A stretch of DNA of 64,000 nucleotides from NCBI GenBank assembly GCA_043228905.1, contig JBHGNT010000001.1, positions 4,464,001-4,528,000 on the forward strand, read 5' to 3'. The position numbers and the translations under genes are program-made. Positions 16,301 through 44,735 of this stretch are shown one piece after another. This DNA is from Azolla caroliniana. Lineage: Eukaryota; Plantae; Polypodiophyta. Position 1 is the first letter of the stretch, and the number at the start of each line of letters is the position of its first letter. The notes under the pieces were generated by a model. That model ran no database searches and was not told where the DNA came from. It saw nothing but the letters and a program-made list of their open reading frames with translations.

Positions 16301-19300
16301 TGGTGGCGGTATTCATGAATTCTCCGATTCACAATTTGGTGAGAGTGCATCTATTCTCACAACTTGCCATATATATTTATTTCTGGAAAACTTTAAACAT
16401 TCTGTTACATTGAGGAAATCAGGTGCTAAATAGCAACATCTGCTGACTGTTTGCAGGACATGTGTTTGCGTTTGGAGAGAACAGAGGTCTTGCCATTGCC
16501 AACATGGTGCTTGGTTTGAAGGAGCTTCAAATTCGTGGTGAAATCCGGACAAATGTGGACTACACAGTTGATTTACTTCATGTAATTCGCTATTTGAATG
16601 ATCCCTAACCAACATGATATTTGACTGATCTATCGGAAGTGGTTCATCTGAGTATAATCTTTGTCTCTTGGCAGGCACAAGAATATAGGGAAAACAAGAT
16701 ACACACTGGTTGGCTAGATAGCAGAATTGCGATGCGAATTCGGGCGGAAAGGCCTCCTTGGTATCTTTCTGTAATTGGAGGGGCTCTTTATGTAAGAAGG
16801 CACCTCTTTGTTTTCAGTTTCTCTGCAATTCTACTTTGTTTATTTGGGTAATTGACTGGAATGGATGGAATTTTCAGAAAGCTACAATGCTCGCATCAGG
16901 AAGAGTATCAGAATATGTAAGCTATCTTGAGAAGGGACAGATTCCTCCAAAGGTACGTGCTCTTTTATCAGATGCATTAATAACTCACTGTCATTGCCCT
17001 TTGAGATAGGATGAAGAAACAATCAGATATAGTCATTTTTGTTACTGCGTCTATGCTTAATAGTCTCGATTCAATTCATTGCAGAATCTCTCTTTGGTTA
17101 CCATCCAAATAGCTTTGAACATCGAGGGAAGCAAGTATACTGTAGGTTCCATGACTTCTGAAGCTCTTCCATGTTTCTTTCGGTTCACCTATAACTATTG
17201 TTATAACTATTACCATTTCCATTGTGCTGTTGATATAGGTTGACATGGTTAGAGGTGGCCCTGGTAGTTATAAACTCAAGTTAAACAACTCAGTTGTTGA
17301 GGCTGACACTTTCATTCTCAGAGATGGAGGACTCTTAATCCAGGTTAGCCTTCTTTCTATTTCTTTAGAACAAAGTCTATGTTATTGCCTCTCAGTATTT
17401 ATGAGGCTTCTTTGTGCAGTTGAATGGCAATAGCCATGTGGTTTATGCAGAAGAGGAAGCAGCTGGGACACGGCTTTTAATTAATGGACAGACATGCTTG
17501 CTTCAGGTTCTCTTTGGCATTTAAAACTCTTTTATTCTTCAGCATGACATCTTGGGAGGAAAGAAATAGTGATGCTCAATGTTTCATCAATATTGCTGAT
17601 ATGATTTGCAGCTGATGAATATTGGTAAACTTTTTCCCGCAGAATGATCATGATCCATCACGTCTTATAGCTGAAACTCCGTGCAAGCTACTCAGGTTCT
17701 TAGTATCAGATGGTAGTCATGTTGATGCAGATGCACCATATGCTGAAGTGGAAGTGATGAAGATGTGCATGCCATTGCTTTGCCCTGCATCTGGAAAGAT
17801 AAATTTTAGAATGTCAGAGGGTCAAACAATGCTTGTATGTATCTTATGCAGATAGGTTGTAATGGTCTTATAGCGAGTTAGCTTCATAAGATTCTAATCT
17901 TTTTCAAAATTATCAAACAGGCTGGAGATTTGATCGCAGGTCTTGATTTGGATGATCCTTCAGCTGTACGGAAAGCTGTCCCATATGAAGGTGGGTTTCC
18001 TCCCCTTGGTCCACCAACTCCAGTAGCAGGGAAGGTGCATCAGCGATGTGCCTTCAGTATACAAGCTGCTCAAATGGTGCTTGCTGGCTATGCCCATGAC
18101 ATTGATGATGTGAGAATAGAAACTGTTCATATCCATAGTAGCGTATTTATTAACAAAGAAAATTATCAAGCATCATTTTGCTTTGATCTGTTTTGCATAG
18201 GTTGTAAAGACTCTATTGGGCTGCTTGGATGATCCACAGCTTCCTTTGCTCCAATGGCAAGAGTGCATGTCTGTTCTCGCAACACGTCTCCCAAAGGATC
18301 TCAAAGCTCAGGTTTGTTCCCATGAGATAGTTGGCTTGTTTAGCATCGGTAACTTGTCTCTATTATAGGTTCAATAATCATAAACAGATTTCTCAGTCCG
18401 GGCACTAAACATGCTTTGCATAACCAAACATGTTTACATAATACTAGAGCCATTGCTTGTGAAGCCTAATATAACACGTGCTTCCAGTTACTCATTGGAA
18501 AATTACTTCCCTCTTTCAGCTTGATGGAAAGTTCAAAGAATATGAATCTTCTTTTTCTTCACCACTTGGAAGTGTAGATTTCCCTGCAAAGGCGTTGCGT
18601 ACAACTATTGAGGTTTGTAGAGTAGAACACATGCTATTGTGATTCGTAGCGGAATGCTTTTATGATTGATTTTATGAGTTTTATATGTTATCAGGCCTAT
18701 GTTGGATCGGTTCCTGAGAAGGAAAAACAGGCTATCGAAAGATTGATAGAGCCATTAGCAACTCTCGCAAATTCTTATGAAGGAGGAAGAGAGGGTCATG
18801 CTTGCAATGTTGTTAAATCCCTTTTCAAGACATATTTGGATGTTGAAGAACCTTTTAATGAGAATCAGGAGGTGTGTTTCATGCTTATTTATTTCGTAGA
18901 TCCTATGGTATTTTTAAGGAAACAATCATATTCTTTCATTGGTTCCCAATACACCTCATTATTAATTCCACCTGTTACAGGCGGATGTTATTGAAGCTCT
19001 GCGGCTGAAGTATAAGAAAGATCTCCTGAAAGTAGTTGACATTGTGCTGTCTCACCAGGTACATTTGTAACCAATGGCATGGTTATACTTGCTTTGCATA
19101 CATTTTTTATACATAATTCACTTTTTCAAACAGGGTGTGAAAATGAAAAACAAACTTATTTTGCGGTTGTTGGATGCTCTTGTCTATGCCAACCCTGCGG
19201 CATACCGAGAGGAATTAATCCGTTTTGCTGCACTCAATGACACAAAACTTGCAGAGGTATTATCGACATGTGATAATGGAAAATGCTTTCTAAGTCAGCG

Positions 19301-22300
19301 TCAAGTTTATAAATTTGGGGCTAATTTATTTATCTTACCAGTTAGCTTTGCGAGCTAGTATATTGCTTGAACATACAAAGCTTAGTGAGCTTCGAGCTGG
19401 TATAGCACGAAGCTTATCTGAGCTAGAGATGTTCACAGAAGAAGGTACTGATAGTGTCTACACTCCACGAAGAAGAAGTGCCATTGAGCAAAGAATAGAG
19501 GATGTAGTGAATTCTGGTGAAGCGGTTGAGGATGCTCTAGTTTCCCTGTTTGATCACAGTGATCACACTTTGCAACGACGAGTCGTAGAGACATATATAA
19601 GACGAATTTATCAGGTACCTTCTTGTTATTCGACTTATCATAATTTGGTCTAGAGGCTTGGTCAGAAACATGTCGGAAATACCTTATGCTTTTTTTCCAC
19701 AGCCTCATCTCATCAAAGGATCAACGAAGATGCAATGGCATCGGTCAGGTCTTCTTGCTTCCTGGCAATACTGGCAGGACACTGCTGTAGCGGCATTGGG
19801 TAATTCTTCTACAGCTAACCATGGAACCACAGAGGCCAAACATTCAGGGTCCATGGTTATTATTTCAAGTCTAAATGTTCTTTCGAGTGCTGTTAGTGCT
19901 GTCCTGAAAGAAGCAACAAGTCTCTCTTTAGAACCATCAGGAAATGCTTTGCATGTTGCACTTGTTGGTATCAACAATCCTATGACAAACTTACAAGACA
20001 GGTGCTCTTTTTACACCTGCACATGTTGGCATATGCATGATATTATGCAGTTACAGTTATATATCAATCTAATGTGGTTGCAGTGGGGATGAGGATCAAG
20101 CTCAGGAAAGGATTGAAAAGCTCGTGAAGACACTCAAAGAAGAACCACTTTCTTCGCTGTTGAAGTCGTCTGGTGTAGTAGTTGTCAGCTGTATCATTCA
20201 ACGTGATGAAGGCAGAGTGCCTATACGACATTGCTTTCACTGGTCTGAGGAGGGACAAAACTTTGTGGAGGAGCCAATACTCCGTCATGTGGAGCCCCCT
20301 GTGGCTAACCTTCTGGAACTGGTAATCGCATAACCAAAAACTTTGAATAAAAAATAGATTATGATTCACTGTCGACTTGATAAGAATTGCATGGTATTGA
20401 TGGCTATCATAACATGTTTTCTTTTATATAGAACAAGCTGAAGGGATATGCCAACACTCGATATGCACCTTCAAGGGACCGCTTGTGGCACATATATTCT
20501 GTGGTTGACAAGCCAGCTATTCGTAGAATGTTTCTAAGAGCCCTCTTAAGACAGCCAAACCCCAGCAACTCACTTGGCAGTGATACAGAGTCGTATACTA
20601 CAGAAAGTGTTATGGTTGCAATACAAGGTGCACTTGAAGAGCTAGAGCTATCAGCTTATGATCTTAATGGTAGACCAGATCATGCACATATATTTTTGAG
20701 CATTGTGCGGCATCAAGAAATAAGGGATTTATGTGATCATAAGTGAGTTATCATCATCAATATATCTTGTTTGAAAGGTTTCCATGTTAGTTTAGTTCTA
20801 GTCCTTACAGCAGTGTGGTGGTGGTGTGTGTTGCCTTCAGTACAATAAAGGCGATTCGGAGCACAGAGTTGGGAGAAAGCACGGTGATACAGCTTTTAGA
20901 GGACCTGGCACACAAGATTCATAACAGGCTTGGGTTGCGCATGCACCGTCTTGCTGTAGCATCGTGGGAAATCCGATTGAAAGTGGACTTACTGGGAAAG
21001 ATTGATGGTTCCTGGCGAGTGGTTGTGACAAATCCAACTGGTCATACTTGCATTGTGCAGGTGACATATCCATCATTGTGGGATGATTTTACTTTTAAGC
21101 ATTGATGTGTTGCATGTAGCTTACAGTTCAGCTATGTTATCTTGAAATAGGTTTATTCGGAGGGTGTAGATTCGGCTAGTAGAACACTTGTTTACTCATC
21201 TCCTGAAGGTTATCCTAAGGGTCCGCTACATGGTTTGCGTCTTGATTCCCCTCTTAAACCCTTGGATACGGTAGAGAGGAAGAGATTAATTGCGAGACGA
21301 AACAATACTAGCTACTGCTATGATTTCCCTCTGGTAAAAAACAGTTTTGAAATAGGCATTTATGTTTTATGTCAACTGGGAGGTTCCCCACTTGATTCAA
21401 CTAAATACTTTGGTTTGGATTGTAATTGATATACAGCTTTTTGAGACGGCATTACGACAGATCTGGGGTGACACAAAGAAGGTTGTGCTCAAGAGTTCTG
21501 AATTAGTCTTTGCAGATACGCCAAGTTGGGATGGATCCTTAGTAGAATCTGATCGTGTTCCAGCGTCTAATGACGTGGGCATGATTGGATGGAACTTTGA
21601 ATTATTTACACCCGAGTTTCCTGCTGGGCGGAAAATTATGGTAGTTTCAAATGATGCGACACATGGTGCTGGAGCTTTTGGTCCAAAGGAGGATTACTTC
21701 TTCAAGGCTATGGCTGATCTGGCATGTGAAAAGAAGCTGCCTTTAATATATTTGGCAGCCAACTCAGGTGCCAGGATAGGAGTTGCCGATGAGGTGAGGG
21801 CCCGCTTTAAAGTAGAGTGGTCTGATGGACTTTCTCCTGAAAGGGGTTTCCAGTACTTATATTTAACAGAGGAGGACTATGCAAGCATAGGGACCTCAGT
21901 CAATGCACATGAACTGAAGCTTGATTCAGGAGAAAAACGATGGGTTATTGATGACATAATAGGAATGGAAGATGGAATTGGTGCAGAAAATCTTTCAGGC
22001 AGTGGAGCCATTGCAGGTGCTTTCTCACGAGCCTATAGGGAAACCTTCACCTTGACATATGTCTCCGGTCGCACGGTCGGTATTGGTGCTTACCTAGCTC
22101 GCTTGGGTATTCGATGCATACAAAGAGCGGATCAGCCTATCATACTAACGGGTTACTCTGCATTAAACAAATTGCTTGGTAGGGAAGTCTATAGCTCTCA
22201 GATGCAGCTAGGAGGACCCAAAATTATGGGGGTAAATGGTGTGACCCATCTCATTGTGGGTGACGATTTGGAAGGTGTTTCAGCAATTCTGAAATGGCTT

Positions 22301-23770
22301 AGCTATGTTCCACCATATGTTGGGGGACCCCTCCCTTCAATTGACCCCATAGATCCTCCAGAAAGGGCGGTGGAGTATAATCCAGAGCTGTCATGTGACC
22401 CACGCGCAGCAATTTGTGGTATTGAGAGTAGTGGAAAATGGCTCTCAGGAATATTTGATAAAGATAGTTTCACAGAGACTTTGGAGGGCTGGGCAAAGAC
22501 TGTTGTGACAGGTCGTGCGAGATTGGGGGGTATACCTGTTGCCATTATAGCTGTGGAAACACAAACAGTTATGCAAACAATTCCAGCAGATCCTGGTCAG
22601 CTTGATTCACACGAGAGAGTAGTACCACAAGCAGGCCAAGTTTGGTTCCCTGATTCAGCATCCAAGACGGCACAAGCATTGATGGATTTCAACAAGGAGG
22701 GTCTTCCTGTTTTCATTATGGCTAACTGGAGAGGGTTCTCCGGAGGCCAGAGAGACCTTTTTGAAGGAATTCTTCAAGCCGGATCAAACATTGTGGAAAA
22801 CCTTCGAACCTATGAGCACCCAGTCTTTGTGTATTTACCGAAAACAGGGGAGCTCCGGGGTGGGGCATGGGTTGTGGTGGACAGCAAGATCAACCCTGAT
22901 GAAGTAGAAATGTATGCTGAACGAACTGCCAAAGGTGGTGTATTGGAGCCAGAAGGTCTTATTGAAATCAAGTTCCGGACAAAGGAGCTCCTTGAGTGCA
23001 TGCATCGTCTCGACCCTCAGCTTATTGAGTTGAAGAAAGCGGTGCAAGCTGCTGCTGCTGAATCAGTAAATACCATCCAGAAGAAGATACAAGCTCGGGA
23101 AAAGCAGCTCCTTCCGACATACAAGCAAATTGCAATTCGTTTTGCTGAGCTTCATGACACATCGACAAGGCTCGAAGCGAAGGGTATCATTAAGAAGGTG
23201 GTTGATTGGGCGGATTCACGAGGATATTTTTACAAGCGTTTGAAAAGAAGAGTTGCAGAAGAACATCTCATAAAAGACGCAAGGGTTGCCGCAGGTGGGT
23301 TTCTAACACGACCTGCTGCTTCTGAGCTTGTTAAACAGTGGTTTTTGTCATCCAAACATCCTTCATCAGAGGAAGACAAGGAGGCTCTCTGGAAGGATGA
23401 CAATTCGTTCTATGCTTGGTTGAATGATGTCAAAAACCTAGATGTACATTTTGAGAAATTAAAGTCAGATCGTGTCACAAAACAAATCCTGTCCTTCAGC
23501 ACCTCAGTGGATCTCGAAGTATTGCCGCAAGCCTTTGAAACCTTGCTACAAAAAGTAAGCTTTGTTATTTATATATGCATGCATATTTTTTGACCTTGCT
23601 AGTTGTACAAGCATACATAAATTTTTTTTGTCTTCATAATGTTCTGTGCGTCTATGTTTAATTGTTATAATTTTGTTTGTCTTTTGTTTCAACAGGTTGA
23701 TCCATCTCAGAAGAGCAAACTGGTCAAAGATCTTCTTGCAGTCTTACACAACTGTAATCCAGCTGTATAG
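13388..23770 (+). CDS. ACC1: Homomeric (multifunctional) acetyl-CoA carboxylase, cytosolic type; about 31 coding exons
   Basis: BC domain: [54 protein letters not shown] biotinylation motif EVMKM at about 17750. CT domain in the large exon 21438-23554 ([28 protein letters not shown]). Approximate exons: 13388-13747, 13847-14053, 14198-14359, 14443-14535, 15050-15145, 15231-15404, 15501-15594, 15888-16075, 16160-16210, 16299-16339, 16457-16581, 16675-16791, 16878-16952, 17084-17141, 17239-17343, 17420-17506, 17643-17834, 17921-18108, 18201-18311, 18520-18612, 18695-18871, 18981-19058, 19134-19256, 19342-19614, 19703-20001, 20084-20321, 20431-20743, 20840-21060, 21151-21333, 21438-23554, 23696-23770 ([24 protein letters not shown]). 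Confidence 0.97.
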
Positions 23771-27395: not shown

Positions 27396-27969
27396 GAAAC
27401 CTCCTTTTAAAAGTCACAAAACAAAACAAAACAATTGAAATCTATCATATTTTTTTAAAACAAACAGAAAAAAACAAAAATATCAAGAAAAAGAAGTGAG
27501 AGAAAAACCAAGGGGGCCTACACGTGGTGTGTTTTTATTTTATTTGGGGGTGGGGCGGTTTTCTATTTTTCTCTCTCTTCGGCTGGCTTTTTTTTTGTTT
27601 TTTAATTTAAAAAAAGCCAAAATTATCTATCCAGGAAATTGGGAGGAAACTTCCTTTCCGTTGTGTTTGCTTTGTTTCTCCTTTTGTTCTGTTTCTCACC
27701 ATCATCATCCATCCTCCATCATCCATCCATCATCATGGATCTCTTTTTCTTCTATATTTATCATTTCCCTCCCTCCATCTCCATTCCATTCATATGCAAT
27801 TTCTCCTCCTCCTTTCTTCCCATATCCCAATCTTTCTTTGTTTCTTTTCTATCACATATATCTCTGAATCTCCTTCTTCTTCTTCTTCTTCTTCTAAATT
27901 CTCCATATCCTTCCCCATCTTTTGTTCTTTCAAACCATAAGCCCAAAACCTAAACTCCTCCCCCCCAAC

Positions 27970-28719
27970 ATGAAGCTCCGATTGAAGCTCTCCTCAAACC
28001 CTACCTCCCCGACCCGATCCCATCCTTCGGATTCCGAATCGTCCCCCTCCTCGAGAGAGCAATCCCCCATCTCCAAGAAGCTTCCCAACCCTACATCTCG
28101 ATGCTTCCTCCACTTGCCGTCGTTGTCGCGGAATCGAAGCTCCAAACAAGGATCGGCAAGCACCTCCCCCAACACAACCACCAATTCCTTGGGCTCACCC
28201 CAAATTCCGAAGCCGAGCCCGGGATCTTCTCCTCCTCCTCCTCCTCCTAGGGCCTGGCACGGCCCCATGGCGGCCACATCTAGCCAAGCCTCGATCCAAG
28301 AGTACAAGCAAATCTTCGACCAATTCGATGCGAACCGAGACGGGAAGATCTCGGCTGAGGAGGTGAAGGCCATCCTCCAGTCGCTCGGGGACGAGAACAT
28401 GACTCTCGAGGCGGCCGAGCGCATGGTCGAGGAGGCCGACTCGGACGGAGACGGCTTCATCGATCTCCAGGAGTTCATCGATCTTAACCGTCGGTGGGAT
28501 GCCGAAGTCATGAGCACCGAGGAGCTCACCGATGTCTTCCACATCTTCGACCTCGACCGCAATGGCCACATCACGGCCGACGAGCTCCACACCGTCCTCA
28601 CCAGGCTCGGCGACCATCGCACCACGTTCGAAGATTGCCGGAGAATGATCACTCGCGTCGACCATAAGGGCCTTGGCCATGTTGATTTCGATGACTTTAA
28701 GCTAATGATGAGGTTCTAG
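27970..28719 (+). CDS. CML: Calmodulin-like EF-hand protein, single exon, ~249 aa with Ser/Pro-rich N-terminal extension
   Basis: ATG at 27970 (MKLRLKLSSN...). EF loops DANRDGKISAEE, DSDGDGFIDLQE, DLDRNGHITADE and a degenerate DHKGLGHVDFDD. GC3-rich codons, TAG at 28717-28719, CT-rich leader upstream. Confidence 0.93.
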   Translation: MKLRLKLSSNPTSPTRSHPSDSESSPSSREQSPISKKLPNPTSRCFLHLPSLSRNRSSKQGSASTSPNTTTNSLGSPQIPKPSPGSSPPPPPPRAWHGPMAATSSQASIQEYKQIFDQFDANRDGKISAEEVKAILQSLGDENMTLEAAERMVEEADSDGDGFIDLQEFIDLNRRWDAEVMSTEELTDVFHIFDLDRNGHITADELHTVLTRLGDHRTTFEDCRRMITRVDHKGLGHVDFDDFKLMMRF

Positions 28720-30566: not shown

Positions 30567-31304
30567 TATAAGATATCCTCTAACCTATACATGCATAAAT
30601 ATTTGATTAGATGGATACAACGTGATTGCCACTCTTGAAGTAGTCTTGCCCCAAGCGAAAATTTGCTTATACAATCACAAGGCATGTGTGGATTGTATTA
30701 GATTGCAAAATAGTAATAATGCACATCAACTATCCAAATTGCTTTAAGCTCAATGGTAGAAAAAGTAGTTCAGCTAAGACATTCACGTGAAAGGAAAATG
30801 TAATTTTGAAATATTTTTTATTTAAATATGAATATTCAGTTGATCCCACTAGGTCTTTTCCACTCCGTAGTTAGTGCGCTCAAGTATAAAACCAAGGATA
30901 AGCTTCATTGGAATATTGTTGGATGAAAATGACAAACCCATTTGGATAAGAGGGAATTTTCAAATAAGCAATGAAAGAGGTTATCCGATTGATAGTTGTT
31001 TTATTCAAATAAAGATAGATAGATGCTTTTTGTTAAGAAGATAAAAAGAAGTTATAATGACAAAGAGGTCATTTGGAGGGTATTAGAAAATCTGAGTCTG
31101 GATTACATCTTTCATTGTTTTGGAACACACTAAAAACAACTTATACATATTGTCATGTTCACAAGATTTTGCATATAAGCTTTATATTTGCTTTCATTTA
31201 TGCCATGAGGTATGGAAATTCATTTTAGACATATGGATAACCAACTATGGTGGTGTTGATTATCATAACGATGGCTACAATATTTATTTATAGATGTTGT
31301 GGAT

Positions 31305-34300
31305 TCATAACTCCTCTTCATGTTCAAGAGGCATGGTTTTAACCTGAAACGAAAATGGCAAATAATTTTACCAAAGAGAGTTAGTCATCTAAGAAAATAA
31401 TTTGTTTTTTTTCATTTGTACTAAAAAACATCAGATTTCTGCATCCGAGCAGCCATTACAAAATCATTTCAAGATCAACAAGAGAGATTTCAAAAAACCT
31501 CCATTATCATTTCATTACTACTTTTTTTTTTTGGATAATGTTACTTTATTGATATTAGCGTAAAGAAGATTCCATTAGAAAGAAATAAAGAAAACAAACA
31601 TGAAGAGCCATAAAAGAGTTGCAAAATGCCCTTTACCAAATCTTTATACTTCAATATGTAAAACATCTCGATGTATCGTCTGCTCTCTCGCCTTCCGAGC
31701 TTCGACACATACTTCCAAAATCCATAAACCCTAGATAACGTCATCAACCTTTTTGCATAGATCTGCCATGTATATCTGTGTTTTGATAATGTTAGTTAAT
31801 TCAGTTTACTGGTGGGAAATCTTAATGTGAGGTAAAAACACACCAAATGTAGGCAGAAACTAACCAAAACAGGATATTCAACAAGAATTCAAGAAAACGG
31901 CATTTATATGCTCTTTGATATCATATGAAACATATGAAAGCATGCAAAGAATGTCTGAATGCACATAAATTAGAAGTTCTAAACTTACGAGAAGGGTAAC
32001 CTATAAAAGTCCATGAGGTTGAACAAATTAGAAGAAGTTAAAACAAAAATAAATTGCAAAGAGCTTGATAAACTAACTTTTCATAGATTCGCTTTAGCCC
32101 TGCATTGGAGACTTGGACCCATCGGTCCGGATCCGCTTTGCATTGCTCAAAGAAGCTGATGAGCTTTTCAGTAGTTTCATCCCCTGTGTATGGATCTATG
32201 TGGAAACCCGACACACCGTCAACTATGATCTCTGCGGGTCCACCATTACATGTTGCAAAGGTAGGCAGCCCACAAGTCATAGCTTCAACTACAGTAAGAC
32301 CAAATGCTTCGTACAAGGCCGGCTGCAAAGTATAATAATTCTTTCAGGAAAATCTACTTATGCCAGTTTTCATGTGCAGCATACATTCAATAAATGAATG
32401 TACTATCATGTCCACATAATGATATATATTAATGTCCACTATCATGTTAAAAGCATAGATCTATCCCCTGTTGTGTAAGATGCTCTGTAAGATCATAGAG
32501 ACGAAATCTGTCCACAAGCTAACAGCCCTAGCTCTGCCTCATTGATTTGATTACTGTATGATTGCATGCATGTGCATAACAACTAACCTGAACAAATGCA
32601 CCTTTTGTGTCAGCAATGTATCGATAAAGCTCCCCATTTCTGACCCTGTTCTTTTGTGCACGTATCCATCGGAATTGACCACTAAGCTTGTAATCCACAA
32701 TGAGCTTATGCATTGTCTCGATCTCGGCGATCTCTTCCCTATCTTGAGATTTCTCCACACTGAAATCCCCTGCTACTACAACAAGGTTAACAAGCTCTCT
32801 TAGCTTTGGACTTTTTGCAAACCACTCGACCAGGCCAGTGATGTTTTTGACTCGATCCAAGCGTGCCATAGAGAAGATGATTGGCTTCTTTTTGTCTTCC
32901 AAATACCCTCTGCATAAAATAGAATTCAGGCCCAGTGGGGGTTAAACATATGCATAATAAATATTTAATTCAAGTGCCATGGTTTCAAATATTCATTCAT
33001 TAAAACCAGTTTCTTAGCCCTTACGTGTGGTCTTCTGTGTCGTTGGGGTTGAAAAGTAGCTCCTCGATAGACCCATGAAGGGAGGTCAAACGCTTGGAGG
33101 CATCAGTGTATGGGAAGTAAATGCTCATATCTGCTCCAGGTGATACAATGTTGAACTTGGGATCAAAAACATCAATGCCATTAACAACTCGGTAGAGTCC
33201 TGGCATAGTGAAGGCAGCATGGCTTTCATACTGACCAACAGTTTGTAGACTGCAAAAAAAAAAAGCACAGGTAAAAAATGAATAATAAAAGAAGAAACGC
33301 CAACATGGTAAAGAGGAATAAAAGAACTTGTATTGAAACAAACCTGCCAGCTATCTCCTGGTAGGTACTAGTAACAATGAAATCGGCATGGTTCATCGCA
33401 ATAAGATCTGCGGTGAATTGACATGAGAAATGGTATTTCTCCTCAAATTGTTTCCAATATATATCTGAACATGGATACTTCGTCTTCTCCAGGGCATGTG
33501 CTATGTTGCACTGATAACAAGGCCAAAATGAGAACAATTCTGACGAAGGAGATGCTTGCAATTAGATTAGAGGAATAAAAACAATGAGTGTATACCTGGG
33601 TTATTCCAAGCTTGTGAGAAATCAAAGATGCTACAAGATTTCCATCGCTGTAGTTACCTATGATTAGATCAGGTGGGCCTTGTAATTCTGCACAAATCTC
33701 ATTTCCGACATCCTACCATCATGGGATTACCATTTAGAACAGCAAGATAACATCAAAAGTATTCTAACAAACGTCCAAGTTATACTATGACTACCACGAG
33801 ATCATACCTCTGCAAAAACCTCCAGGTAAGGCCATACATCAAATCGGGAGATCCATTGTTGGAGAATTCCCTTTTCTGTTTTGAATGGAACTCTCAGAAT
33901 TTTCGAGTGGAGTGTTCCACCTATCTTTTCAATACGCTGATTGCATGTTGTCCCTTTTGAATCTGGTATCAATCGAGTAACCTTCCATTGGACAAATATA
34001 AATCAGTTAGTCGTGATAAAAAACTACGAAACAAAGTTACAAAAACCAAAGCAGTCTGTACATGAATGAACCCATACATAACCTCCATCTCAACTCCTGT
34101 TTAAGGTTATGTGTATGCACATACCCAAACCATAGATTGATTGAGGTCTGCAAATATAGTGATGAGAACCTACCACGATGATTTGAGGAATGATTTGTAG
34201 CCCTTGATTGTTGATGTTCTCAATCATTTCCTTTTCTAAAGCCCTGACTTGATCAAGAATGTAGACAATCTGCACATAATTAATGTCCCCAGGTTTAAGC

Positions 34301-36461
34301 CCCTGAATCTGGTGTCCATCAAAGCAGCGCGGCAATGGCAGAGTAGTTTGAAAAGATTGTTATATAACGGAAAGTTCATACCTGACCACCTGTATCAGGC
34401 AATCCTAGAACATTGGCCTGGCCGAAATACCCATGTGGTGACATAATAACAATACTGAAAACCATTGGTATTCTTCCCAGAAACTTCTCTAAAGTGTCTG
34501 GGTCAGGGGCTTGTAAGATATCCAAAAGAAGATGTATCATTTCCAAGCTAAGCTCTGCATTATTACCCCATCCTTTCTCTAGACCTATTTCTTGGAGTCT
34601 GCATGAATATACTAGAAATGTTAGCAAACGGATTCACAAGAGGTGCGAAATAAGATATAAAATAAGATGAATATACTAACCTGATGGCAAATTCCTCATA
34701 TGGAGTAGTGGATGGAAGTTTATGCAAATACTCTTCCGCTTTTAAAAGAGCACTGCGAAGCTTCTGAATATTTGGGATTCTATCGTTGAGCATAAGGGTC
34801 TGCCAGAAATATATACCGTCAGTTCAGAAGACATTATTAGGGATTTCCACCAAAATATTAACTTCGGGTTCTGCCATGACCCCTATTAAGAGCTTATCTA
34901 AATCTTTCAAAACTTACCTGACCCTGATACTTGTGCACCCTGAGAAAATCGAAGAGAGGCTGCATGCTGTCGGCATCTTGGAAAAGCTTTGACGACAAAT
35001 GCCGATTAAGGAACTGAACTCCATTCCCAATAGAGGATGGCATGGAAAGGCGTGGAAAAGATGCATTGAATGGTTCAAAATCAAGCTCCAGAACAAAGGG
35101 GTCTGCCTTGCTCCTGTCATGTATGCACTTAATTAGGAAGGAAAAAAACTGAACCATAAACCCACACAATAACAATTTCCCCATATACAGTTCTGCATGC
35201 TTCCCATATATTGTTCAACATTAGCAGCTTTAGCATGCGAGGAGGAGCATACCCAGCTAAATCCCTGATGTTTCCCATCCCTTTCGGATGTAAGCAAGAA
35301 GCCTATTTTCCCCCTTATGTTTACATTGATCAGCATTCTGAGCTTTTGCATAAGAGGCGAAGCATAAGAGGTGGAAGAGGGTTTTTACCCATGGCCATCA
35401 TGTTTTCTATTAGGGTAAATATCCCAGTTTCTATCATGTTCCCTATGTTAGAAAGACCCCACTTTTATTTCATGTTTGCCTGTGCCTTACGTCGTTTAAC
35501 ATTATCATTTTCTGTAGGAGACTCATTGGATGATGCCTGGCTATGCTCCACCTCGCATAACAGAAAGCCCATAATGTTGGTCCAATTCCAGAGATATATG
35601 GCTCACAATAAAACCCCCACCTAAAAACCTCTTCTTCTGAGCTTATTGCACCATCATCCTACTGTGTTTAGCTTAATCTTACTTGATAGCATCCTCGAGA
35701 GCAAGACGTTCCTTGAGTTCAAGATATTCGGCTGTCGAGAGATGCTCGATCAAGAGCTCATCCACATTGATCCGGACATATTCCCACAGGCCAGGCTTCG
35801 GCCGAACCGCAAAAGCGACCCAAGGGTTCACCACAATGGCTTCCTGATATTAACAAACAAAACGTTTGTGCAAAGATCAACACAAGATTAATACAAGAAA
35901 AAATTGAGTAACTTAATATAAGATTGTGTATAATTTCTAGGGAGAAACTCTCAATCCCTCTGCACTTTAAAGATATCTACCAGCATACCCCTAGGTTTTT
36001 GAAAAACAAAACTACTGCTGAGGGGTATTCTGGTGGATACCCAACCAAGTGGTGCTATAAAGAGGAGGAAATAAATCTTTGAATTACTTGAGTCCCTTGC
36101 AGTATGAGCTCAAATCCACTGTGTTGCAATGATTCCTTCTCCTCCACCAAATGATCAAATTCCGCTTTCAAATCATGTGGTTGAAGGATCTTCTTTCCAA
36201 GCCCAACAAATCTGCATCATCCAGTTCAAGAGAGGCAACCCATCTTTGATATTAGTAATATTGCAGCTGAAAGAAGACATTAATTGATCAAAGGGAAAAG
36301 CACAGTAGTATGATACAGCAGGGTGTCTCTGACGGTTATGTTAGTTAGTTTATGTACCGGGAGAGCAAGGAAAGAATGGAGTTGCGATGGCATTGGAGGG
36401 TTTCCTTGAGGCTATCCCCGACGCTCGAAGTAGTTCTGGTGAGCATTGCATTGGAGGCCAT
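31305..36461 (-). CDS. SUS: Sucrose synthase (GT4 family), 15 coding exons
   Basis: Motifs [13 protein letters not shown].., [126 protein letters not shown]. Approximate exons: 36461-36358, 36211-36088, 35843-35683, 35113-34918, 34799-34681, 34598-34382, 34269-34174, 33981-33808, 33711-33596, 33510-33344, 33247-33025, 32907-32589, 32322-32078, 31775-31637, 31343-31305 ([12 protein letters not shown]). Confidence 0.97.
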
Positions 36462-36704
36462 GGCGAAGAGAAAGTAAGGACACAAAACAAAGAAACAATG
36501 GAAAACTCCAAAAAATCGAAGAAGAGCGGAAACAGACACAGAGAAAGAGAGTGAGAGAGAGAGAGAGGGTTTTACAGTGCTTTTGAGGAGAAGCTCAAAA
36601 ACATGAAGAAAATGAAGCAGAAAAAGAAGAAGAAGAAGAAGTGATGATGATGATGATGATGATGATGATTACGAACACGGCTTGTCTTCTCACAGGCCTC
36701 TGCC

Positions 36705-36963
36705 CCAATCACCTCTCGCCACGTAAGCGCCCCGATGCCAGCTCGGCCGAGGTACGACTTTATTTTGAAGGCGACACGTGTCCAGCCAACGGTAGCGTGC
36801 CACGTCACACGTCGCCGGAGGCGTTATGCCCGAAATGGGGGCTTGAGCATGTCAACCAATCACCACATGCCACGTCCGCAGCAAGCCAAAAATAAATAAA
36901 AGTAAAAAATGCCCATAAATAAATAAACCAAAAAAATGTGTCGACCAATCAGGATATGCCACG
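36705..36963. promoter_or_regulatory. Array of four CCAAT-N9-CCACG (ERSE-I-like) composite elements with ABRE/G-box cores, in the SUS promoter
   Basis: CCAAT-cacctctcg-CCACG at 36705-36723; CCAAC-ggtagcgtg-CCACG at 36786-36804; CCAAT-caccacatg-CCACG at 36856-36874; CCAAT-caggatatg-CCACG at 36945-36963. Also a palindromic GACACGTGTC at about 36773-36782. Confidence 0.8.
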
Positions 36964-38385
36964 TGCAAGCCATTTCTCAAAGACTCTTTTGGAGTGTTTT
37001 TTGTTTTTTGTTTTTCAGGGAGGTCATACTTTGCAATGTGCATACTACTACATATTCTCTTCAGCTCCATAAGAAGAAGAAGAAGAAGAAGAAGACGCGC
37101 TAATAACCAACGATCTCATGGTACATGTTCGGTCTTCGGGCGCCAAAATCCAGTTGAAATCGGAAACATAAGATATTCTCGGCCTCTTTCTTCCGGGTCT
37201 TCCATTTTCTTTCCTTCCAAGCATTCCCAACTAATCACGTAACTAAACTCCCCCGTGATTCTCGCCATATGTGTTTGTGTGTGTGTGTCGGTTAATTCTT
37301 GTTGTAAACGAAGAACAAGGACAAGAATCAGCCCCTCCCACATGCGCGCACACTTCTCTCTTTTGGGAATTTGCCTCTCCCTTTTGAGTTCTGACAATGG
37401 CTACCAAAAGACATAGTCTTTGTGGGCCAAACCTCATAGAATGTCGAGGAGCGTGTGCATTGTCCAATGTTGTGATCTCTCCTAGTGTCGTGCTTTGTGA
37501 AAGAATGTCTATTTTATTTGGTTTTCCAAACTATAGATGATTTGATTAAGATAGCTTTTGACCTTTTGGCATAACATTTTGGACGGTTGAGTGCCTTGCC
37601 TTGAAAGTTTGGAACTGAAACTTTGAAACGAAAACTAAACCATTTTTATGTTGTCAATATTGTACATAAAAACTTTTTCTAAATACAAATCCCCACGCAG
37701 TTATTCACTTTGATTTAATGCCAATAGGACCTCACAAACCCCTTTTATTTAAGAAAAGCTAGTGGGTGCTTGTGTGTGTGTCTCTCAGTATGAGCATGTG
37801 GCAAGTCAAGTCTACAAACCTAAAAAGGATCATGCACTTTATCGAATTCAAGTAGCGCCCATTGTACACGTTGTACGAATTTCACACATATGTTGATAAT
37901 GATTCGATTATACATACATTTTTCGTGTTTCCAATATGTATGTACTCGACCCCAGGTTTTTCCTTGATGCCCCATAAGCATGGTTTTACTGTATTGGTAT
38001 ACATTGTGCAACAAAACCCCTAGAATTCTAAAAAGTTGTAAATACATCATGAAAAAGAGATTTTGTTGTACGTTAACTCTCTTTTATAGACCTATTCTTT
38101 TTTATTGGTTGTCTCAAGCATATTTCTTTCGGTGAAGTTGACTAAGATAAACCTCCACTTCAACAAAAGGCTTCCATTATATTCAATATTTCATTTCTTA
38201 TCATCTTGATCGAACACATCCTTACATCAATTTCAACATTGAATAATGAGATGTCTTCATTTCATGACACGACATTGTAACTTGTTGTTATCGAATGACC
38301 ATTTGTCAGCATTCTTGAAACACCCCACTACTTGCATACTCCCATGAGTTTATTGGTGTACACTTAAAAAAGCTTTGCGTATTCT

Positions 38386-38760
38386 AGTTTGAGAAGTTAT
38401 TGCCAAATCTATATTTCAATAGGACGCCTAGCTCTAAACAATATTACAAAGTTTATATTTCAAAGGAATCCTATATTTATTGGCTAGCCAATTTTGAAAA
38501 AATATTTTATAAATTCTAAAATTTTTCACAAGCCTAGTTTGAAACAATATTATAAACTTTATATTTCAAAGGAACCCTGTATTTTTTCGCTATCCCAAAT
38601 TTGAGAAGTTATAGTAAATTCTATATTTCATATGTAAATTCTAAAGTTTTGCACAAGCCTAGTTTGAAACAATACATATTATAAAGTTTATATATCAAAG
38701 GAAGCCTATATTTTTTTGGGCTAGCCAAATTTGAAAAGTTATTGAAAATTCTATATTTCA
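38386..38760. repeat. Degenerate tandem array, about 3 copies of a ~105-125-bp AT-rich unit
   Basis: GCCTAG.T.AAACAATA..TTATATTTCAAAGGAA.CCT.TATTT..GCTA.CCAA.TTTGA recurs at about 38426, 38532 and 38657. Confidence 0.85.
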
Positions 38761-38999
38761 TTAATTTGTATAACTATTCATACTTTTTTTGTGCTAAATG
38801 ATAACGGAGGTTCATAAATAATAATTTTCATTAGGCCTAAATGATAACCTGAGGTTTCTTCTTTGTCTTTGTAAATTTAAATTCCATGGCTAACAATGAA
38901 GTTTGGATCCCTCTATCAATCCACACTACCTACACTAACTTCTAACGAAGTTTGGATTTGTGTGGGTCCACATACTAAGAACTCACTCCTAGCATACAA

Positions 39000-39900
39000 A
39001 TTGATTCAATGTTGAACATGATGACCTCGCACCTTACATACTTGTAGTTATTTGTGTGATAGAATCCTTAACAAACCCTTTTAACCTTGGAATGTATTTC
39101 TTGACCCCAACTTGTGAATCAAAAGCAAGGGCATTTCTCATACTACAATTGTTGCATGGCCCCCAATATGTTAATTCCTCCAAAATAACTTGGAAGTGGG
39201 GCACCACATATGCAAAACCCAAACGAATGGGGATTTCACTAATCTAATTGGAGACGTTCACATTGAATTAGTTACCTTCCAATCCCATTCATCTTGTTTT
39301 TGGACAAGAAACAAAACAATGTCTACTATTTTCCTCGTTGATTGTGCAAAAAAAAAACACATTCCATTAGCATTTCTTCTTATGCTTAAGGCGGCTCCAC
39401 AAGGTAATCATAAATCCTCAAAATGAATACCTTAGGTGTCAACATTGGTGGAGATTGCCTACCCACGTAATCACATGATGCCACCAAGAGATAATGTTTG
39501 GAATCCCTACAACTTTGTTACTCTTTCCTCCATCTACATATGCCTCCCAATTATCTCATAATGAATACCATTTGTTGATATTTTGGCAAGAGTCCTCTTC
39601 TCAACAAATGTCCATGCAAGGTCTTGTGCTCCATTTAAATGTATTATTGGACCCTGTGATATCCGGAAACCTTGCAACTATTCCAAATAAACCTACACCC
39701 TCTCAGAATACCAAATGTGAACCTTGTTGTCCTAAACAACTTTCAATCATTTTTCTACGACCAAGCATGAACTTTTGTGTTGTAATCAACCTAAAGGAGC
39801 CATTTGGATTAATTTTGTTTTCCTTTTGATTACATGGTTGAGTAACAATACTTAATTTATATGGTCACACAATAGTTTGATCAACATGTCCAAAAACTTT
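39000..39900 (-). mobile_element. Highly degraded LINE remnant (zf-RVT region); boundaries uncertain
   Basis: Minus-strand translation near 39350-39300 gives FCTINEENSRHCFVSCPK, preceded by TPKVFI.., which resembles the C..E..H...C zf-RVT motif. There are many stops. Confidence 0.45.
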
Positions 39901-41236
39901 GATAGTTAAATCATTTAGCGGCAACTTGGCAAAGTATGTTGACTTTTAAGAGTGACATCCTCTTAAAGAGAGGATGTGTGGTAATTGTTTAAATGGGGTT
40001 TTGGAAACATAGTTTGAGGTTTCTCTAGAAATATTTGAGTTTTTCATTAACATTGTGTTACCCCATTTTCCAAAATTTTGTGATTCCAAATATCTAAGAG
40101 CAACTTCTTTGAATGGTGAAAGAAAAAGATAGATAGCAAAACTAAAAGGGAACTTCAATTATCAATGTATGTATGTCATGTCCCTCTACTAATGATTTAT
40201 TCTATTGGAAATTTCCTGTTAGTAATATATGCATTGGTAAAAGCAAATATCTCTTTTGAGTTTCTTTCCACAATTGTTTCATAATTTTGGTGCAAACTTT
40301 TGAGATAAGTACATTCTTAGTAATAATTGAAAATTTCACAGGTTTTGCATTCATTAGTATATTAAAAAGACTACATAAAATATAACATTTTGTCAAGATT
40401 TGCAATTATAAGATTTGGATTCATGTTAGGAGACTTGGACTCTTCTAAAGGTAAATGGCAAAACAAACAACCATACCTATTATGCATAATAATAGCTCTT
40501 TCGATTGAATCTAAACCATATCCAAAGACTTAGACCATGGGAAATGTTAATTGATAAGATGAAAGTTATAGGCATGGCATAGACCAAACCATTTACACTG
40601 TTAATTGATAAGATTTGAGCACTAAAGATACTTTAAATTGCAACTAAAGAAAACCCATGTGTAGTTAATAGTGAAAATTGTTAAAACATGTATGCCACAA
40701 GATGACCTTTGGTAGGTAGTTAGTAGTACGTATGTCACACAAGCATGGCGTTTTTTAAGGTGTTCACCAGAAATATAAGACTCAACATTGGCAAATATTT
40801 TTAACATGTTCAAGTATCATAACTTCAAACACAAGGCTATGGTATTCTGATAGGATTAGGAAAAAAACCTTCTATGTATGCATTATCGTTTTTGTAAATA
40901 GATCACATTCATTATAGGAGATTAAACAAGCACTTTGTAAGATTTCATGATTGATACATTCAACATATTATGACTGTTTTTATCTTATACGCATGGAGGA
41001 ATAAAGAAAGATATATTAGAGTCTACAAGAGGAGAAAACCAGCATATGAGACAAATGTTAGTGCCTTTTGACACAGATAGAGAGAGAGTGAGAGAGAGAT
41101 CACTCTTATCGATGTACAATCTTTCATACATAGTAGACTTTCCATCATGATTTAAGATCAGAGGAACAACTTGTCTCAGCAAAACAAAATCTTAACATTA
41201 GGAGGAAATCTAGCTCATAGTTCGCACATCAATTCT

Positions 41237-41325
41237 CTATTCGATGACACTTTCCCTGCTCAGAGATTCTCTTTTCAATGACACTTTCCCTGCTCAGACA
41301 TTCCCTATTTGATGACACTTTCTCT
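41237..41325. repeat. Short tandem repeat (about 2.5 copies of ~34 bp)
   Basis: ATGACACTTTCCCTGCTCAGA.ATTC occurs twice, followed by a partial third ATGACACTTTC. Confidence 0.8.
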
Positions 41326-41808
41326 CCCTCATTGAGAGAGAAAGAGAGAATAAATGCAATTAGAGATTTCTTATTACCCTTTACAATCGTGTGGCGGTAA
41401 CATTATAATCATTCCATACTGCAACTAATACAATATCTTTTACACAAGTAGAAGGAAAAAGGTCACTGTGAAGGAAAAGTATTTCTCATTCTTTTGTTCG
41501 GAACAGTTTTTCCCTCACGAATGAATGATCAAGAATCACCACTATCTTGCAGTTTTAAGACTACACGAAGATTCTTAATATGATATGTACCTTAAATTAG
41601 TCAATCTCCGACTCCTTTGAAATATTGACTACATGAAGATTCATAATATGTTATGTACCTTAAATTAGTCAACCTTCAAGCCCTCTGACATATTTAGTCT
41701 ATAAGCACATTACATATGGTATCCAATTGTCAAACTGGTTTCCTTGTGACTATGCCAGACTTTTGTGACATGGTGCATTCTTGAAACGGCACAGCTATGC
41801 TGAGTTCC

Positions 41809-44735
41809 TTAAATAGTTGATAAATCATCAACTTCGGAATGGAATATAAAGCTTGGGAAAGTAGTCGTGATATCCCTGTAATACAAGATAACACATTTAC
41901 CCAGATAGCCTTCAGCAGTAAAATATATTAGACCACCACCCCTCTTCTTTTAAATCACCAAATCACCCCTCTAGTTTTACTGAGCTTAGTAAGTAAATAA
42001 TTTGATTATAATGAGGAATTACTTTAGAGGGTAAGTTTGCCCATAATTTGCACTTAGTAGGCTGATAAATATTATTTATGTTACTGAATAGAACTAATCA
42101 CACGATATTACAATCACTAATTAGGGGCACACATATTGATCATTAACTAAAACTATATAGTTCCCTAAACTATGTTTAAGTAAGCGCTGAAGAACCCCAA
42201 CTTTTCCGAATATTTCTATTATCTTTACAGTTGAATAAAAAATTGACCAACTTAAAGTTTTTGAGCTATAGTATGGTTCTATCAACTTTCATGAATTAAT
42301 GTTTTTCGATACCTGAGGTAAGGTAATGTCATCATCTTTATGAGGGCAGGATTGCAGGAAACGAATCTTCCCCACTCTTCTCTATCGATCTTGCCATCCT
42401 TGTTTAAATCTGCATCTGCAAAAGTCTAAAAAAATAGAGTTTCTACAGCAAAACTGATATTTACTATGACTTGTTCCTCTTATAAATGGCACAAACTAAA
42501 TGCATACATATAATGTCCCCAAACACAAGTGCAAAGACAGTTGTGACATAATCACAAATTCCTTCACTATATATTACTTTTCTTAGACAACATCAAAAAT
42601 CTCATCCACCCCCTCATATTTAAATATATTTGAATCGTTGCCCTTAGGAATAGCAAATGCATGCAGAGCAAAGGCATTAAGTCTGACGCCCAAGGTAAGG
42701 TTCCATATAAAACTTAGCATTCAATGACAAAGTTTCAAATTTGAGCATGGACCCTCAGACGTACTGCTAACTCTAAATTGATTAACATTGGGCATTCCTT
42801 TGAGTTTTATTTCTGCAATCTTTCATCAATTTTAGGTGCACCTTCAAGTTCAAAATTGACATCATAATGCAATATAGGCTTTGCAGCTGGGAGGTGATTT
42901 CTTATAGTTGTTCTAAACGAGTGCACAGATTTTCTCATGTGATATGTACTGCTTGAAGTTCAAAGGACGCTAGCAAATCAAGAGAAAAAAGGGCTGTGCT
43001 TGTATTCTGTCAAATACCTTGTCTAAGATTGTGGCAATCACATCATCAGACAGCTCCATATCAGACTCTGCCATCAGTGCAACCAACATCAATTTGACCT
43101 ATATATTTATACATCAAGCATATGCATCAGTATCACAAATTACAGCCATCGATTGGAAACAAAATAAAGAATCAATAATCGTTTGTCTAAAGGATCACCT
43201 CTTCTCGTCCAATGTGCCCATTTTGCCTAAAGTCATATAGCTTGAATGCAACTGTTCCAACAAACCGAAGTGTTTGTCAAAAGTATAGCTTCATCATATA
43301 ATAATGAACTGAATATCTAGAAAGTCAAAAAGACCTACATTCAATCTTTTCCCCATCAGTAGCATTTGGATGAAATACGCTGAGACCCATCACAAATTCC
43401 TTAAATTCCAGCAAACCCTTCCCTTCGACATCAAAAACATCAAACACCTGAAGATTCATAAGAGTCTGTTAGTGAATGCCCAGGCATTTCAATAAGCTCT
43501 AATCTTTTAACGTAGTATTTAATTGCTTCACAATTTCACCATAATTTCTAGCAGCATTTTGAATCAGCAAGGCAATAGCTTCATGTTAAGACATCTAACC
43601 ACAGCAATACGCTCTTTTTATTAAACAAAATATTACAGAGAACGGCATGATAGTAAACATCAGGGCTTTATTCACATTGAATGTTTCTGATAATTGTATT
43701 TAGGATCTTTTCATAGATACTCAAATAGGGTTCTCACCATTTTCATGTTTGGCTCCTTAAATATGTAAAAGACAGATATTTCTATTTTGGTCTTTTCCCA
43801 GAGACCTCTTAATAGTATTTCCTCATGGAAAATAATCTTATGCTAAAAAGTGGGTCATTCTAATGGAAAGATCTAAAGTTGATCTGAAGAAAGATTTAAA
43901 AACAGAGAGCATACAATAAGTTTTAGGGTAAAATTACAAACTTTTATGGATATATTATACAATACTACACATATTTGAACGCTAGTTTAATAAAATAACA
44001 CCTATTTTCATGAAGATAAATAATCAGCGTATGTATGACGGCTAGAGACAAGTCAATAAAATCATAATACATATGAATAAGTAGCTAAGCCATTGAGAAA
44101 CAAATAATCAGGATATTCAATTGCAAATTTAAGAAACTCGGAAGGAACTAAAAGGTCAAATCCGCATCAGTTTATGCTCATCTTGCAGAAAAAATCAAAT
44201 GATGATTAATCTCTGTATAAATATTCTAATTTAGCATTAAAAAGATCTGGCTGCAGTCATACAGGAAAATTGAATACTTAAAACAACATTCACAGCATAA
44301 GAAGTTTACTGAGAAGCATACCCTATCTGCAAAAAAATTCTCTTTCTTTTTGTTTTGGAACAAAGCTAGTCGAAATTCTTCCTGCATTGTGTCAAAGACT
44401 TCTTTAACTATCATAACTCGAAGAAAATAGGAAAAACTGCATTGAATGGAAGATTAATATAAACCTGAATTTGTACCTTGTGTATGACACCATCATCTAT
44501 CAGAGTACTGCTTATCTGTTTGTAAAGTTCATATAAAGCCTCCACTTCACTAATACTAACTGCATGCTCAAATTAAAAAACACAATTATAATCTTCTGAA
44601 TAATATTAAAGTTCTATCAGCATAGTCCAAATATTTTGAGCTCGAAATTTCCTTACATGATGTCCGCATTGAAAGTGTGAGAGGGTTCTCATGTCCTGAG
44701 ACCTGCTTTAGAGGTTTTGACTGGAAACAGCCCAT
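41809..44735 (-). CDS. CBL: Calcineurin B-like Ca2+ sensor, MGCxxS dual-acylation type, 8 coding exons, ~214 aa
   Basis: Exons: 44735-44657 ([26 protein letters not shown]), 44559-44477 ([28 protein letters not shown]), 44381-44322 ([20 protein letters not shown]), 43447-43339 ([29 protein letters not shown]..), 43251-43199, 43098-43018, 42425-42313 ([25 protein letters not shown]), 41875-41809 ([21 protein letters not shown]). All introns are GT-AG, the frame is continuous, and the FPSF motif is present. Confidence 0.95.

What the first reader, a model, noticed from the sequence alone, without database searches (positions are those of the whole stretch)
36705..36963. Four-fold CCAAT-N9-CCACG (ERSE-I) array upstream of a sucrose synthase: possible UPR or NF-Y/bZIP control of sucrose cleavage
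Seen: three exact CCAAT-N9-CCACG elements (36705, 36856, 36945) and one CCAAC variant (36786). All have the same orientation and exact 9-nt spacing, lie 70-89 bp apart, and sit 245-500 bp upstream of the SUS ATG. Spacers and flanks differ, so this is not a simple tandem duplication; spacing appears selected. Every core is GCCACGT (reverse ABRE ACGTGGC), and the 36786 element also contains CCACGTCA (reverse UPRE-like TGACGTGG). Established: this geometry is the ER-stress element bound by NF-Y plus ATF6 in animals and NF-Y plus bZIP28 in plants, typical of BiP and other chaperone promoters. NF-Y (LEC1)/bZIP complexes also act at ABREs of seed genes. Inference: this SUS is wired into the unfolded-protein response (for example supplying UDP-glucose for ER glycoprotein quality control or wall synthesis) or into an ABA/desiccation programme that reuses ERSE geometry. 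I know of no description of this for a SUS gene, but could not search.
Basis: partly seen in the sequence, partly recalled or inferred. Interest (0 to 1): 0.8.

Follow-up and report, generated by a model that had tools for sequence, protein, structure and literature searches.

The report
Fern sucrose synthase NF-Y/bZIP promoter array
A fern sucrose synthase gene has four copies of a well-known paired DNA signal in its promoter, which likely lets light- and drought-hormone-responsive regulators switch it on; a specific link to ER stress looks less likely, because most ER chaperone genes in this genome lack the signal.

Summary
The array is real: three exact CCAAT-N9-CCACG elements and one CCAAC variant lie 244-502 bp upstream of an intact, spliced 814-aa sucrose synthase (SUS) gene. 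The spacing is selected genome-wide: for CCAATCA...GCCACG, spacers of 7/8/9/10/11 nt occur 2/8/56/8/12 times. The UPR reading is weaker. Only 1 of 14 ER-folding genes sought by family carries the exact element, and the only BiP found lacks it. Among 49 other element-bearing promoters I could assign, 3 are ER-folding genes (PDI, TIN1, ERdj-like). The rest include ELIP (3 copies), RHM (3), CHLH, a CONSTANS-like gene, ELF4, NCED, ZEP-like, ABF-like and AXS. In Arabidopsis the same geometry is published at HY5, ABF and GBF sites, and SUS1 is not induced early by tunicamycin. Best reading: a known NF-Y plus G-box bZIP composite element, here probably driven by light or ABA bZIPs, with possible ER-stress input. 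No fern expression or binding data were available, and no orthologous promoter could be obtained. I found no report of this element at a SUS gene. The scan's earlier notes held nothing on it.

The parts
36705..36723 (+). Composite element 1, exact CCAAT-N9-CCACG; core reads TACGTGGC (ABRE type) on the gene strand
36773..36782 (.). Unpaired palindromic G-box GACACGTGTC
36786..36804 (+). Composite element 2, CCAAC variant; its core extends to TGACGTGG on the minus strand (36800-36807, UPRE-I/C-box hybrid type)
   Evidence: UPRE-I definition from the figure legend in PMC8752741
36856..36874 (+). Composite element 3, exact; shares flanks with element 4
36945..36963 (+). Composite element 4, exact; core extends to a full G-box CACGTG
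36462..36523 (-). Minimum 5' UTR covered by an RNA-type contig; the transcription start is not located
   Evidence: run X2, record 6
31305..36461 (-). Sucrose synthase coding region, 15 exons, 814 aa, open frame
   Evidence: 14 GT-AG joints in contigs of up to 4 runs; assembled frame; one exon matches Arabidopsis SUS1 chain 3s27 at E 4e-42 and TIGR02470

Best explanation
The array is four ERSE-geometry CCAAT/G-box pairs upstream of an intact sucrose synthase gene, and it likely works as a multi-copy NF-Y plus G-box bZIP switch read mainly by light- or ABA-responsive bZIPs (HY5, GBF or ABF type) rather than as a dedicated ER-stress element. NF-Y would bind each CCAAT and hold a bZIP dimer on the ACGTGGC core 9 nt away; four copies would give strong induction of sucrose cleavage to UDP-glucose. 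Shown: the motifs, spacing selection, gene model and the set of genes sharing the element. Inferred: factor binding, the inducing signal and the metabolic purpose.
For: Spacer counts 2/8/56/8/12 (about 44 of the 56 remain after collapsing a tandem repeat, a retrotransposon family and 3 duplicate small contigs). Enrichment over the reversed control: 56 vs 10 and 78 vs 29. Across 107 non-transposon sites the two bases after CCAAT are mostly C/G then A/G, the recalled NF-Y preference; part of the set was selected for CA. The single ELIP found has three tandem copies next to its TATA box. Single copies lie upstream of NCED, Mg-chelatase H, a B-box/CCT gene, ELF4, and ZEP-like and ABI5/ABF-like genes (named from recalled motifs). 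RHM (3 copies) and AXS are UDP-sugar enzymes downstream of the SUS product. Passages of bioRxiv 10.1101/2023.04.28.538684 report an NF-Y-like motif forming ERSE geometry at HY5, ABF1/3/4 and GBF2/3 sites. Passages of PMC3602376 report NF-YC binding to ABF1-4 and HY5 in yeast and propose CCAAT as an ABRE coupling element. G-group-like and ABF-like bZIPs are in this genome.
Against: No expression, binding or mutant data for this fern. 0 of 11 chalcone-synthase-family loci fetched have the exact element, so it does not mark every classic light target. The bioRxiv authors note that the NF-Y site near HY5 peaks might be occupied only with bZIP28. The SUS copies face the same way as in all 3 ER-folding genes with the exact element, whereas 29 of 45 non-ER promoters face the other way (Fisher p=0.056, hand-curated). 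Many element-bearing genes fit neither light nor ABA (PPR, kinases, UBC, BAG). I did not identify a HY5 gene among the 28 bZIP matches. No orthologous promoter was obtained.
Confidence: 0.55

Rival explanations
1. The array is a true UPR switch: the membrane-anchored bZIP17/28-like factor (or bZIP60) with NF-Y induces this SUS under ER stress to supply UDP-glucose.
For: Exact ERSE-I consensus. In Arabidopsis ERSE-I is centred on bZIP28 and bZIP60 peaks (PMC8752741 passages). This genome has exact elements at a PDI, TIN1 and an ERdj-like gene, one-mismatch elements at calnexin and a HYOU1-like gene, and a 788-aa bZIP with a hydrophobic segment after the zipper. Orientation matches the ER genes, and the reverse-orientation octamers score highest for tunicamycin response in Table 2 of PMC5499772. 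Element 2 contains TGACGTGG.
Against: Exact element in 1 of 14 ER-folding loci; none at BiP, 2 GRP94-like genes, 5 calreticulins or 3 other PDIs. Only 3 of 49 assigned promoters are ER-folding genes. In the PMC8752741 supplements, AT5G20830 (SUS1) has log2FC 0.03, 0.00, -0.24 at 0 h after tunicamycin against about 7.7 for BiP3, rises only at 24 h (0.8-1.3) and more so in bzip28 and bzip60 mutants; none of the 4 SUS identifiers searched is in the peak table. That is a distant species, and 2 further SUS genes were not searched.
Confidence: 0.2
2. The array gives strong developmental or sugar/energy-dependent expression (NF-Y with C/S1-type or other G-box bZIPs in sink tissue), not a stress response.
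For: Element-bearing genes include PEPCK, an RWP-RK factor, wall and nucleotide-sugar enzymes and housekeeping-type genes. SUS contigs are present in all 4 runs laid. S-group-like bZIPs are in the genome (named from recall).
Against: ELIP, NCED, ZEP-like and ABF-like genes point to stress or light signals. Contig depth cannot rank expression.
Confidence: 0.17
3. The array is largely non-functional: G-box-rich promoter sequence plus local duplication.
For: Two of the four copies share flanks. None of 3 SUS paralogues has an exact element. Other clusters arise from tandem repeats (L036, L031) or a duplicated block (RHM).
Against: All 4 cores are paired at the exact spacing although spacers differ; 5 of 6 copy pairs show no clear flank likeness; the spacing is selected genome-wide; one paralogue (L043) has a one-mismatch element in the same orientation 243 bp upstream of its ATG (background about 0.05/kb, so a weak hint).
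Confidence: 0.08

Closest known systems
ERSE-I (CCAAT-N9-CCACG; plant form CCAAT-N10-CACG), bound by NF-Y with ATF6 or bZIP28/bZIP60 (PMC5499772 parts 1-3 of 4 read; PMC8752741 passages and supplements)
   Same: Identical consensus and spacing, several copies, position a few hundred bases upstream of the gene, reverse orientation as in Arabidopsis BiP3.
   Different: The gene is a sugar-metabolic enzyme, not an ER chaperone. In this fern BiP and most ER chaperones lack the exact element, and most carriers are non-ER genes. ER-stress response is untested.
NF-Y-like motif beside HY5, ABF1/3/4 and GBF2/3 sites in Arabidopsis (COBIND, bioRxiv 10.1101/2023.04.28.538684; passages read)
   Same: Same CCAAT plus G-box geometry at light and ABA bZIP sites, mostly in promoters, with conservation peaks in flowering plants.
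   Different: Reported for Arabidopsis binding data; the passages read name no SUS gene, no fern and no multi-copy array.
ABRE with coupling element; NF-YB/NF-YC with bZIP67 at seed genes (PMC3602376 passages)
   Same: Multiple ACGTGGC cores; CCAAT proposed as an ABRE coupling element.
   Different: The seed complex is reported to work without the CCAAT box; here CCAAT is fixed at 9 nt from every core, implying a full NF-Y trimer.

Membership tests
ERSE-I | CCAAT-N9-CCACG consensus | tested here: met
   3 exact copies and 1 one-mismatch copy
ERSE-I | Fixed 9-nt spacing under selection | tested here: met
   2/8/56/8/12 for spacers 7-11 genome-wide
ERSE-I | Proximal promoter position | tested here: inconclusive
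   244-502 bp upstream of the ATG; RNA-type contigs reach 36523 and none covers 36600-36799, but contigs cannot show a start
ERSE-I | Marks the ER-chaperone regulon in this organism | tested here: not met
   Exact in 1 of 14 ER-folding loci; one-mismatch density equal to non-ER HSP70 loci. Present at TIN1 and an ERdj-like gene found through the motif
ERSE-I | Cognate bZIP17/28-type factor encoded | tested here: met
   788-aa bZIP with hydrophobic segment after the zipper; family name from recalled architecture
ERSE-I | Induction by ER stress through NF-Y and bZIP28/60 binding | not testable with these tools
   No fern data; Arabidopsis SUS1 is not induced early and not in the peak table
ABRE / G-box light-ABA module | Two or more ACGTGGC or G-box cores in the proximal promoter | tested here: met
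   4 GCCACGT cores plus an extra G-box
ABRE / G-box light-ABA module | Shared with known light and ABA genes in the same genome | tested here: inconclusive
   Present at ELIP, CHLH, COL, ELF4, NCED, ZEP-like, ABF-like; absent from 11 of 11 CHS-family loci fetched; no genome-wide annotation for an enrichment test
ABRE / G-box light-ABA module | Induction by ABA or light through ABF, HY5 or GBF | not testable with these tools
   No quantitative expression data
Plant sucrose synthase | Full-length open frame matching SUS, spliced | tested here: met

The most novel reading that the evidence does not exclude
In ferns the ERSE geometry is a general NF-Y/bZIP switch that ties sucrose cleavage and UDP-sugar conversion (SUS x4, RHM x3, AXS, a CSLC-like gene) to photoprotection and ABA genes (ELIP x3, NCED, ZEP, ABF), while BiP uses a different CCAAT/ACGT layout. 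The ER-stress meaning of ERSE-I in flowering plants would then be a specialisation of an older module, with SUS as a point where light, ABA and ER-stress bZIPs compete.
Probability: 0.25. Interest if true: 0.6.

Novelty: new member of a known kind. Interest (0 to 1): 0.33.

Why it matters
The element and its sharing between UPR, light and ABA bZIPs are already described in Arabidopsis. New here are a fern example, the densest non-tandem cluster among the 157 genome stretches fetched plus the window (one search covered all of them), and its place on a carbon-partitioning enzyme. The array is a ready reporter for asking which bZIP partners NF-Y at ERSE geometry in a seed-free plant. The census also warns that an ERSE match alone does not identify a UPR gene.

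Tried and rejected
Orthologous promoter: a metagenome scan found one close orthologue (L135, 90% over 51 aa), but its contig starts 6 bases before the ATG; the 2 other hits were 48% identical and not examined. A trace of depth from run X4 in bin 36800-36975 could not be inspected and is not used. RNA contigs were laid on 31000-36975 only and cannot give a start site or expression level. A possible WGD twin with an identical 19-mer (C21, L001) lies near a RING-H2 gene, not a SUS. A different transcript served by the array: no Rfam match in 36400-42300, no Pfam match in the 6 ORFs tested between 36.9 and 39.9 kb; the nearest other gene found is an EF-hand gene on the minus strand with exons from about 42.3 kb. 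The ESM Atlas gave nothing useful for the TIN1-like exon. A genome-wide search for paired elements was not possible, so clusters were found from two single-element patterns; sites of the form CCAATC[CGT], CCAAC-only clusters and 4 of 64 distinct places were not fetched. Nawkar 2017 (HY5 versus bZIP28) was not held; I saw it only as cited. Literature searches for a SUS-ERSE link and for ELIP with HY5, CCAAT and NF-Y (0 papers) found no description; only listings were seen, subscription journals are mostly missing, and a cited maize DTT/PEG paper on SUS expression (title seen) was not read. In PMC8752741 two supplementary files were too large and one had no text; the FPKM table was among those not seen. 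bioRxiv supplements were not available.

Full report
Observation. Three exact CCAAT-N9-CCACG elements start at 36705, 36856 and 36945 and a CCAAC variant at 36786, all on the + strand. Every one of the 4 GCCACGT cores in 36680-37000 has its CCAAT/CCAAC at exactly this distance, and no CCAAT or CCAAC there is unpaired. An extra G-box lies at 36775. The genome holds 1255 exact sites in 523 Mb; a uniform model expects 2.4e-4 triplets within 260 bp. Copies 3 and 4 share flanks and probably come from an old local duplication; the other 5 of 6 pairs do not clearly.

The gene. SUS runs on the minus strand from ATG 36461 to a stop at 31305. Contigs of four runs (RNA by guess) show 14 GT-AG joints that give an open 814-aa frame in 15 exons; one exon matches Arabidopsis SUS1. 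Contigs reach 36523 in the 5' UTR; no leader-intron joint is among the 15 of 16 joints shown. No other gene was found near the array. The organism is a fern by inference: the closest named TIN1 relatives are from Adiantum and Ceratopteris; 22 large contigs would fit Azolla (recalled).

Spacing is selected. CCAATCA-N6-GCCACG occurs 56 times against 10 for the reversed control. With the gap varied, total spacers of 7, 8, 9, 10 and 11 nt give 2, 8, 56, 8 and 12 sites (my count of the 86 rows). About 44 of the 56 remain after collapsing repeats and duplicate contigs. The complementary pattern CCAATD-N7-GCCACGT gives 78 against 29. So a CCAAT/G-box composite with ERSE geometry is under selection in this genome.

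Which genes carry it. I fetched 100 loci around these sites and scanned selected ORFs. I could assign 49 to a promoter by hand; the rest were transposons, coding hits, tandem repeats or unassigned. Three are ER-folding genes: a PDI (L009), TIN1 (L027) and an ERdj-like gene (L118). The other 46 include ELIP with three tandem copies beside its TATA box (L015; the only ELIP match), RHM with three copies in a duplicated block (L003), Mg-chelatase H, a B-box/CCT gene, ELF4, NPH3, NCED, AXS, PEPCK, two BAG genes, an RWP-RK factor, a GH3 glycosidase and several kinases. ZEP-like, ABI5/ABF-like, MAPKKK17/18-like and CSLC-like names rest on recalled motifs. Among all stretches fetched, the SUS array of 4 is exceeded only by a 43-bp tandem repeat. 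The census is incomplete (see Tried and rejected) and there is no annotation for a formal enrichment test.

Direct test of the UPR reading. I sought ER-folding genes by family and scanned 14 loci: BiP, 2 GRP94-like, calnexin, 5 calreticulins, a HYOU1-like gene and 4 PDIs. The exact element is in 1 of 14; one-mismatch matches are 0.060/kb against 0.067/kb at 15 non-ER HSP70 loci. Calnexin and the HYOU1-like gene do have proximal one-mismatch elements with an intact core. The BiP promoter has CCAAT boxes and ACGTG cores, including TGACGTGG, but in another layout (13 and 16 nt apart, opposite order). Only 73 of 122 HSP70 candidates were scored, so a second BiP could be missed. For the UPR reading: a bZIP17/28-like gene exists, and the SUS copies share the orientation of all 3 ER genes while 29 of 45 single-orientation non-ER promoters face the other way (p=0.056). 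Against a blanket light reading: 0 of 11 CHS-family loci fetched have it.

Paralogues and orthologues. Three other SUS loci lack the exact element. One (L043) has a one-mismatch copy in the same orientation 243 bp upstream of its ATG, close to the 244 bp of element 1; at a background near 0.05/kb this is a weak hint of an older site. The one close orthologue found ends at the ATG.

What is known. PMC5499772 (parts 1-3 of 4 read) shows that CCAAT-N9-CCACG is a spacing-biased motif across Arabidopsis promoters and is enriched in tunicamycin-induced ones. PMC8752741 (passages, supplement rows) finds ERSE-I at bZIP28 and bZIP60 peak summits. In its tables SUS1 is flat at 0 and 12 h in wild type and about twofold up at 24 h, more so without bZIP28 or bZIP60, and no SUS identifier searched is a bound gene. 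Identifiers recalled for ELIP1/2, CHLH and ZEP are unbound and down at 12 h. The identifier recalled for TIN1 is strongly induced but is also not named in the peak table (a peak is assigned to the adjacent AT5G64505), so absence from that table is imperfect evidence. The COBIND preprint (passages) finds the same geometry at HY5, ABF and GBF sites and cites HY5 competing with bZIP28 at ERSEs. PMC3602376 (passages) reports NF-YC contacts with ABFs and HY5 and proposes CCAAT as an ABRE coupling element.

Mechanism and verdict. Most likely (0.55) NF-Y binds each CCAAT and positions a G-box bZIP on the adjacent core, and light or ABA bZIPs supply the signal, raising sucrose cleavage to UDP-glucose for wall sugars, glycosides or stress metabolism; binding, signal and purpose are inferred. 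A dedicated UPR switch (0.2), a developmental or sugar-driven promoter (0.17) and no function (0.08) remain. Because these bZIPs share the core, mixed input is plausible and sequence alone cannot separate them. The element is known; its four-fold use at a SUS gene and in a fern was not found in searches (listings only). Interest 0.33; new member of a known kind.

Noticed in passing
L041 and L067 (G000:C10:6227500-6242499): The only BiP found and a GRP94-like HSP90 lie head to head about 2.2 kb apart, sharing an upstream region; the BiP side has CCAAT boxes and ACGTG cores in a non-ERSE layout.
   Followed up: partly
L015:4960-5040: The only ELIP match in the genome has three ERSE-geometry elements at 24-bp intervals just upstream of its TATA box.
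   Followed up: partly
L003:4860-5200: RHM (UDP-rhamnose synthase) promoter: three exact elements within a repeated block, two with a GCCACGC core, plus a decayed fourth copy.
   Followed up: partly
L090:3700-4030: AXS (UDP-apiose/xylose synthase) promoter has a tandem unit CCAAT-N9-CCAAG repeated several times; only one unit has the full CCACG.
   Followed up: no
L122:3955-4070 and L125:3999: A triple element upstream of an unassigned gene; a near-identical GC-rich stretch with one element lies on another contig.
   Followed up: no
L117, L134, L094, L112: ABF-like, NCED, ZEP-like and MAPKKK17/18-like genes each carry one exact element, which suggests an ABA feed-forward loop on this motif.
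   Followed up: partly
L036:4780-5230: A 43-bp tandem repeat holds six exact elements with no gene identified nearby.
   Followed up: no
L044:5500-5700: SUS paralogue on a small contig has an odd 5' end: the first ATG frame stops early and a second SUS-like first exon follows.
   Followed up: no
window 13376-23593 (+), 27898-28719 (+), 42285-43468 (-), 55853-58225 (+): Neighbours: a multi-exon acetyl-CoA carboxylase-like gene (biotin carboxylase domain), a calmodulin-like EF-hand gene, a second EF-hand gene (CBL-like by recall) and a long single-exon PPR-like frame.
   Followed up: no
G000:C19:8.3-9.9 Mb and C10:1.15-1.36 Mb: Clusters of chalcone-synthase-family genes (about 19 places genome-wide).
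   Followed up: no
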